A stretch of DNA of 64,000 nucleotides, taken from contig OX597816.1 in assembly GCA_951406725.2 (NCBI GenBank), positions 169,818,001 through 169,882,000 of the forward strand, given 5' to 3'. A model generated the notes under the pieces. It saw nothing but the letters and a program-made list of their open reading frames with translations. It did not search any database and had not been told where the DNA came from. Shown here in pieces: positions 5,526 to 64,000 of this stretch; the first letter of the stretch is position 1; the number at the start of each line of letters is the position of its first letter. The stretch is from Octopus vulgaris (lineage: Eukaryota). A program made the position numbers and the translations under genes.

Positions 5526-5778
5526 TAAGTAATACTAAGTAATTAAGGGTTTAGCAACGAATTGCCTCACCAACACACCGAATTTAGAAATAGCAGTCAA
5601 AGAGATATAGCTATTCCTTCTACTAAAAGGGGGATCTCAGTAAAAACACAGCACTTGTTTTTACTGAGATCCCCCTTTTAGTAGAAGGAATAGCTATATC
5701 TCTTTGACTGCTATTTCTAAATTCGGTGTGTTGGTGAGGCAATTCGTTGCTAAACCCTTAATTACTTAGTATTACTTA
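5526..5778. repeat. Long palindrome in (TA)n (123-bp arms, 7-nt spacer)
   Basis: 5526-5648 is the reverse complement of 5656-5778. The right arm continues ~90 bp of unique sequence before the next (TA)n. Confidence 0.95.
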
Positions 5779-5943
5779 AATTTTCCTCGAATGGGGCTTT
5801 TACATGCCGAAATCTACTTGGTGTAATTGATAATTATCCCTAATTAATTAATTTCACCCTTTATTATTATTATATATATATATATATATATATATATATA
5901 TATATATATATTTAAAAAAAGGAGATGTCGAACACGAGTGGTG

Positions 5944-6176
5944 ATATATAAAAAAGGAAATGAAGAAAATGCTGACAAATAATTGAAGTAATTTAAGTAA
6001 TTTAATTAGGTGAAAGTTCTTTTTACCGGTTGCGCATTTGTTATGCTTATCAAAATATGATATATTTTGATAAGCATAACAAATGCGCAACCGGTGAAAA
6101 GAACTTTCACCTAATTAAATTACTTAAATTACTTCAATTATTTGTCAGCATTTTCTTCATTTCCTTTTTTATATAT
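5944..6176. repeat. Long palindrome in (TA)n (115-bp arms) with degenerate hammerhead
   Basis: Arms 5944-6058 and 6062-6176 with one mismatch seen. Contains TTGATAA-GCAT(aacaa)ATGC-GCAA-CCGGT. Confidence 0.9.
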
Positions 6177-7606
6177 ATATATATATATATACACAACATT
6201 ACTATGGAATATATAATATTTATTGTCATAACTTTGATTTGTCTTTGAGACAAAAAGAATCGCAACTAACGGGATGAAAAGCCGAATAAAATATATTTCA
6301 ATTTATATTAAAGAAAGATATTGATTGAATATGAATATATAACAATGTAAATTATGAGAGTTTTGATCTGAGTGTCATAATGCATTGGTAAAACTTATTG
6401 TGTTTCGTTGTGTTTCATTTCATCTCTACGTATCAACATGAAATGAAAATTAACATACGTTAAACATTTAAGAAAAGTTAAGAGAGAAACTCTTACTTTG
6501 ACAAGAGCATCAAATGAAATGAAAGTAGTTTACTAGGAACCGAAAGCGTGTCACAAAGTTGGTTCAACAAGGGCTTGCAACACCCTTAGAGTGTTCTACC
6601 GCGCGCATACATACCTGCCCCTACATGCATACATACCTGCCCCTACATGTACACACACACACACGCCGGCAGTCTTAGATTTCCTCGTATTCGATTATGA
6701 TCTCCAATCGTGCCTTAAAAGTGATATGATTACAGTGAAATGGACTATGGCAAACCATCCGTCATATTCCGTTCGTCTGCAGAAACGCCTTATTTATTTA
6801 ATAGCAAAGTTGGTCTTAGTGGTGGGATTTATTTTGCGTTTTGTTTCCTTGAGGCCAAAAGATAAATTGAATACTGCACGTTGGCTAAACATTCATACAT
6901 TTTACGGTATTGCAGCTGTTATTTACATTAACGAGTAGTTTCATTCCTGAAGTTATTACTTATAGCTATGTGGATGATAAACCGACCGCTCAAATTATGC
7001 GTATTCACTTCAAATTCGTACCTAAGTTTTCACACATGATCAAGTTTCTTTTATTGACGTAAAATCACAGGTGTTTGTTGAAATGATAAACTATTATATT
7101 CTTTTCCCCAAAAAATAGCATTTATAAACACGATTTCCATTTCTTTGCAGCATCCGGAGTAGCTCCTCCACCATTGGACTCCTGGAGTATTAGTGGTATT
7201 AAGTAAGTATATAAAGATACCTATAGTAGTAAGCATAACTGCGTAGTAGTTATGCTTACTAGGGCCAACTTTATGTCATCACCTTTATTTCAATTCCTAT
7301 TTGAATATTAGACCTTGCGTCTATATAAGAAATCAATATAAATATTAGCAAATGGTTAGATCACGCGCAGCAAGGACAGAAAATGTACCTTTCAACTCCA
7401 ATTATAAAGCATCTTCATATTATGTTAAATCCTGGGGGCAAGAACAAATAGCATGCAGCATTTAGGATCACTAGTAGCGTTCATAAAATTTCTGGCGCAA
7501 TTCACGTACCGTTGATAGTATTCACGACACGTTTGTTCTATTTATAAACCCCTAACACAGGAATGAGATAGTCTGCGCGCTCTACTAGACATGGTGGTTC
7601 AATATC

Positions 7607-62129: not shown

Positions 62130-62420
62130 TACCTTCCCACCTACCTACTTACCTACCTACCTACCTACCTACCTACCTACCTACCTACCTACCTACCTAC
62201 TTACCTACCTACCTACCTACCTACCTATCTACCAACCAACCAACCTACGTATCTATCTGTCTGTCTATCTGTCTATCTATCTATCTATCTATCTATCTAT
62301 CTATCTATCTATCTATCTATCTATCTATGTTTCTATCTATTTACCTATCTCTCTATCTATGGATATATATATATATATATATATATATATATATATATAT
62401 ATATATATGTATATATATGG
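62130..62420. repeat. (CTAC)n-(TATC)n-(TA)n compound microsatellite
   Basis: Directly visible. Confidence 0.95.
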
Positions 62421-63503
62421 ATACGTGTATTTTCCCCTTGTTTACAAATAACAAGGAAAAAATAAATAAACAGCTACCAGGGCAGCAAAAAATCACACAA
62501 GTAATAAGGACGTAACACCCTGTTTTTAAAAGTAGAAACTCCGGGTTCATGTGAAATATTTTGTGTAATATATATATGAATAACTAGAGTTAATCTCAGG
62601 TTTAATTCAAATTCTTTTACTTCCGACATATGTTTCGAAGAAAACATTGGTATTATTCCAAAGGAATAAAATGGTGTAAAACAACAGTGTAGTCTTCTCT
62701 TCAGAGAAAGAAAGAAAGAAACCAAACTCTTCAATAAGATATTTTAACAGAATGTGATGGATGTGTATAATGATGAACGGAGCGCTATTAAGTTTCTTTG
62801 AAAAGCGTTAAAGGATATAACGTCAAAGGTAGCCTATTGAAAGAAGAGGGGTAAAGGAAAGAAATAAGCAGAAAACTAATAAATGAGAAATATAGAGCGA
62901 TATGTGAATGAAATAAAAGCTTAAAGGCTTGGAAAAAAATATATCGAATGGAATTGAAATGTAAGAAGAAAATCAATGCTCAAATTATATATAATGGTCG
63001 ATATCACTTATATGAACTATAAGTATGTTTCTGCCAATGTTTACATCGATAAGTACGCTCCATAACCGTGTTTACAAGGGGATTCTTAGAAAAAAGAGTA
63101 TAAAATATCTCAGTATTACAGAGTTGGCAGAATTCTTTGCCTTTATCATATGGGGATGAAATGGGGAGAATCAACCAATTTAAATTAAATTGTTTATTAT
63201 GGTCTTTTAGATACCAAATTAATGAAATTCTGCCTTGTGCTGTTGCATTTATAACTATCCCTAAATGTAGAGTAATGGATTAGAAATTTTTTTAGATAAC
63301 TGAGAAGAACTACCTATATAAAAAAAGACATCGGTACACTGGTATATAGAGTTTTAATGTTAGCATTACTAGACATAAACTTAATTCTATTGGAATTGAC
63401 TTCAGAGACAATAAACTTGTTATTAATATTTCTTGGGAGATGGTTGGTATTAGCTAAATTAATATTAGTAATAGTACCTGGATTCTTATCTAACAGCTGT
63501 GAG
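62417..63503 (-). mobile_element. PLE linker, GIY-YIG and 3' UTR (inverted relative of 54850-55806)
   Basis: Reverse complement aligns with 54850-55806; ends in (TA)n on the left. Confidence 0.85.
62620..62709 (-). ncRNA. Type-I hammerhead ribozyme fold with intact core and long stem II
   Basis: Minus strand TTTCT-CTGAAGA-GAAGA...TCTTC-GAAA-CATATG-TC-GGAAG: canonical core, palindromic stem III ACATATGT and GTC triplet. Confidence 0.8.
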
Positions 63504-64000
63504 TCCGTAAAAACACGCCCGATGGTTTTGATGTTACGAGGGGAAGTTCTGATTCAGCACAAATAGCTGATTTTGTCGGTATATATATAATTTATGAAAT
63601 GGCAAACCAGTTACCAAGCATCAATGGAGGTCAATTTCGTGATGATTGTTTACCTTCAAAATGTTTCTGACCAAAATGTAGAAAAGGTTAAGAATAGTTT
63701 AGTTAAGTTTTTCTGTAGAATGGGCTTAGGCATCGTTTTTGATGATGATGTAATGAAGGCCAACTTTTTAGATATTACACTTAACTTACACAATTACTTC
63801 TCATACCACAAACCATCGTACAATCTTAAGTATATAAGCCAATTCAGTAATCATTCTAGAGCAATCATTAAGAACTTAGCTAAGAAAATTTCATTTAGAT
63901 TAAGTTAGCTGCTAATGTTGACATTTTTAACGACAAGGCTGAATTTTATAACTCTGCCTTACTTAAAACAGACTATATAGAGAAAGTTACCTACATTAAT
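63504..64000 (+). mobile_element. PLE reverse transcriptase fragment (Naiad-like motifs), runs off the window
   Basis: GFDVTRGSSDSAQIADFVG...GGQFRDDCL...VEKVKNSLVKFFCRMGLGI...ANFLDITLNL...YHKPSYNLKYISQFSNHSRAIIKN...RLS, frameshifted. Confidence 0.85.

What the first reader, a model, noticed from the sequence alone, without database searches (positions are those of the whole stretch)
5526..64000. Recurring architecture: inverted-pair insertions in (TA)n tracts, from 130 bp to kb scale, across unrelated sequence families
Seen: insertions at 5526-5870, 5911-6176, 29922-30137 and 43139-43813 share no obvious sequence, yet each has two opposed copies joined at their inner ends, unequal arm lengths and (TA)n-rich outer flanks. 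62417-64000 has the same layout, but its right end is outside the window. Four of the five carry hammerhead folds. Established: PLEs often show inverted 5' pLTRs. Inference: (TA)n is self-complementary, so both ends of a break present the same primer; two cDNAs could be primed, one per end, then joined, producing palindromes with ribozymes on both strands and potential dsRNA hairpins.
Basis: partly seen in the sequence, partly recalled or inferred. Interest (0 to 1): 0.75.

Follow-up and report, generated by a model that had tools for sequence, protein, structure and literature searches.

The report
Two-ended Penelope retrotransposon insertions
These mirror-image insertions are real back-to-back copies of the ends of several Penelope-type jumping genes, a layout already described for that group; their two halves nearly always stop at two different fixed points, which suggests that one RNA is likely copied onto both cut ends of the target DNA.

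Summary
Four insertions (A 5526-5870, B 5911-6176, C 29922-30137, D 43139-43813) are real head-to-head pairs with unequal arms. E (62417 onward) is an old, scrambled opposed pair and is not palindromic inside the window. They belong to unrelated families: C is a Hydra-type Penelope-like element (PLE) and E is related to it; B has a Neptune/Nematis-type endonuclease; A and D are tandem hammerhead retrozyme-like units. Hammerheads lie in three window copies (C, D, E), not four. Genome-wide the pair is the usual product: at least 65 of 89 tailed C copies have one, against 2 of 30 SINE controls. One arm ends at a 'long' 3' site and the other at a fixed 'short' site: B 31 of 31, kb-scale C 15 of 18 (3 unclear), A 16 of 18. 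That is the published PLE 'tail'. Arms share source-specific variants, and each often holds sequence the other lacks, which favours two target-primed cDNAs over fold-back. (TA)n symmetry is not required: D forms pairs at other AT-rich sites with 8-13 bp duplications. Read checks were inconclusive. The architecture is in print, and this scan noted it on other genomes.

The parts
5528..5657 (-). A: inverted arm ending at the family's short 3' site (591-nt tandem hammerhead family; this copy lacks the ribozyme)
5656..5870 (+). A: arm ending at the long 3' site (tail about 90-105 nt); 2-nt overlap at the centre
5911..6058 (-). B: arm with tail (long end) of an EN+ PLE with Neptune/Nematis-type GIY-YIG; its 5' end is at the family hotspot -145
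6061..6176 (+). B: arm ending at the short site (about 31-37 nt before the long end); 2-nt filler at 6059-6060
29913..29989 (-). C: short-ended arm of a Hydra-type PLE, with type I hammerhead (core starts 29975)
29986..30137 (+). C: long-ended arm with tail (about 70 nt) and hammerhead (core 30000-30029). The 4-nt palindromic overlap at the centre recurs exactly at 213 loci
43139..43436 (-). D: inverted arm of a 352-nt tandem hammerhead family; non-canonical outer end; shares an 8-bp deletion with the other arm
43437..43813 (+). D: arm of one monomer plus 32 nt, ending at the short site; hammerhead core near 43611
62419..63495 (-). E: decayed PLE 3' arm (EN remnant, hammerhead near 62704, long end)
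63498..64000 (+). E: broken RT fragment (31-35% identical to the family C ORF); continues outside the window through scrambled pieces to a tail-less 3' end at about 65047

Best explanation
These are insertions of Penelope-like retroelements and of hammerhead-bearing non-coding units likely mobilised by them, likely made when the element's protein cuts both DNA strands and extends both 3' ends by reverse transcription, starting at two fixed sites on likely one transcript, after which the two cDNAs would be end-joined. Shown: the head-to-head geometry, the strict long+short pairing, shared variants between arms, arm-specific sequence, and target duplications at non-TA sites. Inferred: (1) both 3' ends prime; (2) one RNA is copied twice, with the downstream RT either stopping near the second primer or displacing it; (3) the many ~230-bp mini-palindromes come from initiation in the 5' pLTR, with both cDNAs running off the RNA 5' end (an Inr-like site; transcription start not measured); (4) host end-joining links the cDNA ends. 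(TA)n is a preferred target, not the cause of the inversion.
For: Frequency: 65 of 89 position-ordered tailed C copies have a joined inverted arm, a lower bound. SINE control: 2 of 30, and 0 of the 22 TA-flanked ones. Orientation of neighbours within 6 kb in a 100-hit list: 23 outward-facing, 1 inward, 4 tandem. Long+short pairing: B 31 of 31 pairs in a tail-blind sample; C kb-scale 15 of 18, 3 unclear; C tailed sample 61 of 63 resolved inverted ends at the short site; A 16 of 18. Two independent syntheses: in 22 of 61 C pairs the short-ended arm reaches more than 10 nt further 5' than the tailed arm, and in 11 the tailed arm stops at or after the short-site region. At kb scale either arm can be longer by 0.6-1.5 kb. 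Same source: arms differ at 10 of 253 diagnostic sites (4%) against 41% for shuffled pairs. L154 and L136 carry 24 and 12 shared variants not seen in other sampled arms. Window D arms share an 8-bp deletion. 5' ends are coupled: 31 of 61 within 10 nt vs 18.9 expected; 8 of 20 longer pairs within 60 nt vs 1.2. 43 of 151 C arm ends fall at -156..-150. In vitro a PLE cleaves and extends both strands from two start sites that bound the tail (PMC11167929, main text read).
Against: Shared variants also fit fold-back copying, gene conversion between arms, or two RNAs from one locus. Coupled 5' ends and L281 (both arms carry the same chimeric junction) fit fold-back equally well. Exceptions exist: window D has a non-canonical outer end; only 9 of 14 D pairs are clean long+short (read); A has one long+long and one short+short; L039 is long+long. 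In vitro, start-site use did not differ between strands, and both strands were not shown extended in one event (PMC11167929). The A, B and D samples are best-hit sets and may be enriched for double copies. No raw reads confirmed any junction.
Confidence: 0.68

Rival explanations
1. Fold-back or self-priming: one cDNA, or an antisense RNA as proposed for Adineta PLEs, folds on its own 3' end, is copied back, and is resolved by the endonuclease at the short site.
For: Arms share variants and inner ends are coupled. 23 of 65 centres have 2 or more nt of overlap, and 213 loci share one palindromic centre. L281 repeats a chimeric junction in both arms. Proposed in PMC3846280 and, as EN resolution of the tail, in PMC8557442 (passages read).
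Against: A fold-back copy must be nested in its template. In 22 of 61 C pairs the short arm holds upstream sequence the tailed arm lacks, while the tailed arm holds the tail; in 11 the arms hardly overlap. 42 of 65 centres are blunt, 1-nt or filler junctions.
Confidence: 0.17
2. One reading: (TA)n self-complementarity offers the same primer at both ends, and two independent RNAs are copied.
For: 85 of 89 C tails and 60 of 64 inverted outer ends abut (TA)n. Start sites carry AT-rich microhomology (seen).
Against: Independent choice of start site can give at most 50% mixed pairs, against 31 of 31 observed. Pairs form at non-TA sites with target duplications. A TA-flanked SINE is rarely paired.
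Confidence: 0.08
3. Post-insertion DNA-level inverted duplication, or an assembly or library fold-back artefact.
For: No read-level confirmation. 36254-36416 looks like such an event, since its mirror extends into the flanking microsatellite interruptions.
Against: In A-D the flanks are not mirrored. Outer ends are family-fixed. Target duplications bracket whole pairs. Older pairs have diverged arms. The pattern is rare in the SINE control.
Confidence: 0.04

Closest known systems
EN+ Penelope-like element insertions with inverted 5'-truncated copy and one-sided tail (Craig et al. 2021, PMC8557442, Fig. 2 legend and passages; Arkhipova et al. 2013, PMC3846280, passages)
   Same: Head-to-head inverted copy at the 5' end, tail at one end only, partial tandems, (TA)n bias, short target duplications, Inr-like site in the pLTR.
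   Different: Here the tail is quantified as a near-strict long+short pairing across four families. Tails are longer in C (about 70 nt) and A (about 90-105 nt) than the 30-40 nt described. The 2013 paper explains the inversions by self-priming, which the non-nested arms argue against.
Hydra clade of C-terminal EN+ PLEs (PMC8557442, section 11 read)
   Same: Family C ORF has RWK, DKT, CxCX5C linker, CxxC and CxH around the conserved E and N, a hammerhead, and (TA)n targets.
   Different: The unit is 3.37 kb (described as generally under 3 kb); no tree was built.
Poseidon PAc of Anolis in vitro (Frangieh et al. 2024, PMC11167929, main text read)
   Same: Both strands cut and extended; two internal RT start sites bounding the tail; AT-rich targets; hammerhead cleavage not needed.
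   Different: That paper does not link the two start sites to inverted pairs or state that one event uses both.
Non-LTR retrozymes (bioRxiv 10.64898/2026.07.22.740005, abstract, introduction and part of methods read; PMC7229834, listing only)
   Same: A (591 nt) and D (352 nt) are non-coding tandem units with a type I hammerhead.
   Different: Their copies here show PLE-type tails and inverted arms; circular RNA was not tested.
L1 twin priming (as described in passages of bioRxiv 10.1101/2024.12.14.628481; original model recalled)
   Same: Two target ends prime on one RNA and give an inversion; 11 of 61 C pairs have this non-overlapping geometry.
   Different: L1 twin priming uses a variable internal site and is a minority outcome (recalled). 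Here the second site is fixed, the arms usually overlap as duplicates, and pairs are the majority.

Membership tests
EN+ PLE (family C) | Single ORF with RT and C-terminal GIY-YIG endonuclease | tested here: met
   727-aa frame with RT motifs and GIY-YIG-like motifs read by eye. Atlas neighbours at 0.96-0.99 carry PF26215, PF01541 and PF00078 on part of their members. Direct Pfam and PDB searches gave nothing.
EN+ PLE (family C) | Partial tandems forming pLTRs, inverted 5' copy, tail | tested here: met
   L161 and L162: tandem 3.36-kb units plus inverted copies, tail at one end
EN+ PLE (family C) | Hammerhead in pLTR | tested here: met
   Type I motif; cleavage not assayed
Hydra clade (family C) | RWK, DKT, CxCX5C linker, CxxC/CxH motifs, (TA)n target | tested here: met
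   Motifs visible against the description; TA flanks
Hydra clade (family C) | Phylogenetic placement with Hydra RTs | not tested
   No reference set in hand
EN+ PLE, Neptune/Nematis type (family B) | C-terminal GIY-YIG with CX2-5CxxC linker and CCHH-type residues | tested here: met
   260-aa C-terminal frame in L105, read by eye; RT part not fetched
EN+ PLE (family B) | Hammerhead in pLTR | tested here: not met
   None in the window copy or in 1.7 kb of L105; a divergent form could be missed
EN+ PLE (insertion E) | RT and EN remnants, hammerhead | tested here: met
   tblastn to the C ORF, E 3e-18 and 1e-4; hammerhead motif
Non-LTR retrozyme (A, D) | Tandem non-coding units each with a type I hammerhead | tested here: met
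   591-nt and 352-nt tandems
Non-LTR retrozyme (A, D) | Self-cleavage and circular RNA | not testable with these tools
   No usable RNA reads
Non-LTR retrozyme (A, D) | Mobilising PLE partner identified | not tested
   No similarity to the C or B references; partner not sought

The most novel reading that the evidence does not exclude
Two-ended priming is the normal PLE integration pathway: a dimer holds one RNA at two fixed start sites, extends both cut ends, and the two cDNAs serve as each other's second-strand templates. The tail and the inverted pLTR would be one phenomenon, shared across PLE clades and their non-coding passengers, and single copies would be events where one arm failed.
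Probability: 0.5. Interest if true: 0.62.

Novelty: new member of a known kind. Interest (0 to 1): 0.42.

Why it matters
How PLEs form their inverted structures and tails is stated to be unresolved (PMC8557442, PMC11167929). Thousands of young copies here give a clean statistical constraint: one long and one short end per event, same source, non-nested arms. This turns the question into a direct test with the existing in vitro system. It also means many kb-scale hairpin-forming loci exist in this genome. The architecture itself is not new.

Tried and rejected
Raw reads of two runs laid on a family C copy gave only 5 and 4 reads, far too few for a family of thousands, so they are uninformative. 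Contigs of four runs on D fragment inside the repeat: the left flank is present in all four, but no listed piece bridges the centre. Rfam found no hammerhead among the 150 of 190 matches shown, only hairpin-driven miRNA look-alikes and U2. Pfam and PDB sequence searches gave no hit for the C ORF. The hammerhead cut site as palindrome centre was rejected: 5 of 151 C arm ends lie within -112..-103, against 43 at -156..-150. A hammerhead in A's or B's window copy was rejected. (TA)n as a requirement was rejected. 36254-36416 as a PLE end was not established. Literature searches listed no paper that states the long+short pairing rule; the library lacks most subscription papers and no supplements were read.

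Full report
Setting. The window lies at G000:C3:169818001-169882000 in a 2.8-Gb assembly of 227 contigs. It is rich in microsatellites and carries a U2 snRNA match. I call the five insertions A-E. Offsets count back from a family's long 3' end.

Observation. A, B, C and D are opposed pairs with unequal arms in (TA)n. They share no sequence beyond 12-18 AT-rich letters. E is an old opposed pair: minus-strand EN and 3' end, then a plus-strand RT remnant, scrambled duplicates, and an 87%-identical 3' end beyond the window. A type I hammerhead scan finds the motif in C, D and E only. A's ribozyme lies in the part of the monomer missing from this copy, and B has none.

What the families are. C is the 3' end of a 3.37-kb element with a 727-aa frame. 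Its RWK, DKT, CxCX5C, CxxC and CxH motifs match the Hydra clade description (PMC8557442 section 11). Atlas neighbours carry GIY-YIG and RT families on part of their members; direct Pfam and PDB searches were blank. An exact 25-mer of its tail occurs 5,634 times. E is related to C at 31-35%. B ends a frame with a CX4CxxC linker and GIY-YIG domain; its marker 26-mer occurs 771 times. A and D are non-coding tandem units of 591 and 352 nt with a hammerhead, that is, retrozyme-like.

How common the pair is. I analysed 89 of the first 93 tail hits in position order. Dropped: one mis-fetched region, one second hit at the same locus, and two loci already held as L156 and L157, both pairs. 65 of 89 had a joined inverted arm. 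This is a lower bound: three of the long copies proved to be kb-scale pairs and three very short or decayed arms fell under the score cut-off. In a separate 100-hit list, neighbours within 6 kb were outward-facing 23 times, inward once and tandem four times. A SINE control had an adjacent inverted piece at 2 of 30 loci, none among the 22 TA-flanked ones.

The rule at the outer ends. In C, 61 of 63 resolved inverted arms end at a fixed site about 70 nt before the long end. That sample was chosen by its tail, so I also took tail-blind samples. Of 18 kb-scale C pairs, 15 were clean long+short and 3 unclear. Of 31 consecutive B pairs (11 in the first 30 hits and the next 20 listed; 6 further listed pairs not fetched), 31 were long+short, in either orientation. 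A gave 16 of 18 closed pairs among 25 distinct best-hit loci. D gave 9 of 14, and the window's D is one of the exceptions. Independent choice of start site could give at most half mixed pairs. The stretch between the two sites is the PLE tail, which in vitro lies between two RT start sites; the same protein cuts and extends both strands (PMC11167929).

One template or two, cDNA or fold-back. Arms agree at subfamily-diagnostic sites: 10 of 253 mismatches against 41% after shuffling. They share rare variants, and the window D arms share an 8-bp deletion. So they come from the same source. But they are often not nested. In 22 of 61 C pairs the short-ended arm reaches further 5' than the tailed arm, against 8 the other way. 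In 11 the tailed arm stops at or after the short-site region, as in L1 twin priming. At kb scale either arm may be longer by up to 1.5 kb. A fold-back copy cannot hold sequence absent from its template, so two RNA-templated syntheses are needed for at least these cases, unless later one-sided deletions are invoked. Centres are mixed: 23 with 2 or more nt of overlap, 20 blunt or 1 nt, 22 with filler, which looks like end-joining. Against my reading: inner ends are closer than chance, and L281 repeats one chimeric junction in both arms. Both fit fold-back as well as a shared RNA 5' end.

Why so many are tiny. 43 of 151 C arm ends fall at -156..-150, 6 in the next 10 nt upstream, and only 5 around the hammerhead cut. 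The window's exact centre recurs at 213 loci. B has a like pile-up at -145/-146 (a best-hit set biased toward it; the tail-blind list shows the same spacing repeatedly). Both sites fit a YYANWYY initiator pattern (recalled consensus). In tandem elements the tail is part of the 5' UTR. I infer that priming in the 5' pLTR and run-off at the RNA start makes the ~230-bp forms. The start site was not measured.

Role of (TA)n. It is the target of A, B and C (85 of 89 C tails), as described for Hydra and Naiad elements. In D, pairs occur at 6 of 11 TA and 8 of 19 non-TA sites (p=0.71), several with 8-13 bp duplications around the whole pair. Symmetry of the target is therefore not needed. Read-through RNA of A-D is predicted to form long hairpins that bury the ribozymes; expression was not tested.

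Artefact check. Read tests were uninformative. Artefact is unlikely on internal grounds: unmirrored flanks, fixed ends, target duplications, diverged old arms and family specificity.

Known and new. The inverted 5' copy, one-sided tail and (TA)n bias are published (PMC8557442 passages; PMC3846280 passages, which proposes self-priming). My four literature searches listed no paper stating the pairing rule; supplements were not read. Earlier notes of this scan reached the same twin-priming reading on other genomes; I read them after forming my reading, and they are not independent support. Verdict: a real, known kind of insertion, with useful statistics on an open mechanism.

Noticed in passing
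window 36254-36416: Sixth TA-flanked palindrome (91% self-complementary) whose mirror extends into the interruptions of the flanking microsatellites. Part of the arm matches an old repeat family at 80-93%. Looks like a DNA-level inverted duplication, not a PLE pair.
   Followed up: partly
L162 (G000:C1:64214000-64222700): 7.6-kb quasi-palindrome of two full-length Hydra-type PLEs head to head, one with an open 727-aa frame; one long and one short end.
   Followed up: yes
L281 1490-1685: Family B pair in which both arms carry the same chimeric junction; possibly a second-generation copy from a transcript of an older inverted pair.
   Followed up: partly
window 5350-5495, 10300-10464, 25168-25325, 58853-58976, 54849-55803: Single, non-inverted PLE-type 3' ends next to (TA)n, some with degenerate hammerhead cores.
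   Followed up: partly
window 55045-57918: 1.44-kb direct tandem duplication at over 99% identity, containing an E-family 3' end; recent duplication or assembly artefact.
   Followed up: no
window 7675-7866 (-): U2 snRNA match, 139 bits, with an altered 5' end.
   Followed up: no
window 36512-38798, 41117-41689: Broken frames resembling Helitron Rep/helicase (by eye, recalled motifs).
   Followed up: no
window 47321-48115 and 867-1283: Frames resembling a pogo/Tigger DDE transposase and an RTE LINE C-terminus (by eye, recalled).
   Followed up: no
window 7892-9123, 15198-15641, 30829-32032, 60439-60890: Old, spaced inverted repeats (72-82%), likely DNA transposon ends.
   Followed up: no
L246: Control SINE locus with an inverted truncated copy next to a full copy, with a short sequence repeated three times around them; may be two insertions at one site.
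   Followed up: partly
window 5760-5790 and 6110-6140: A and B share a 12-nt AT-rich match near their short sites; could be chance or a shared recognition motif.
   Followed up: no
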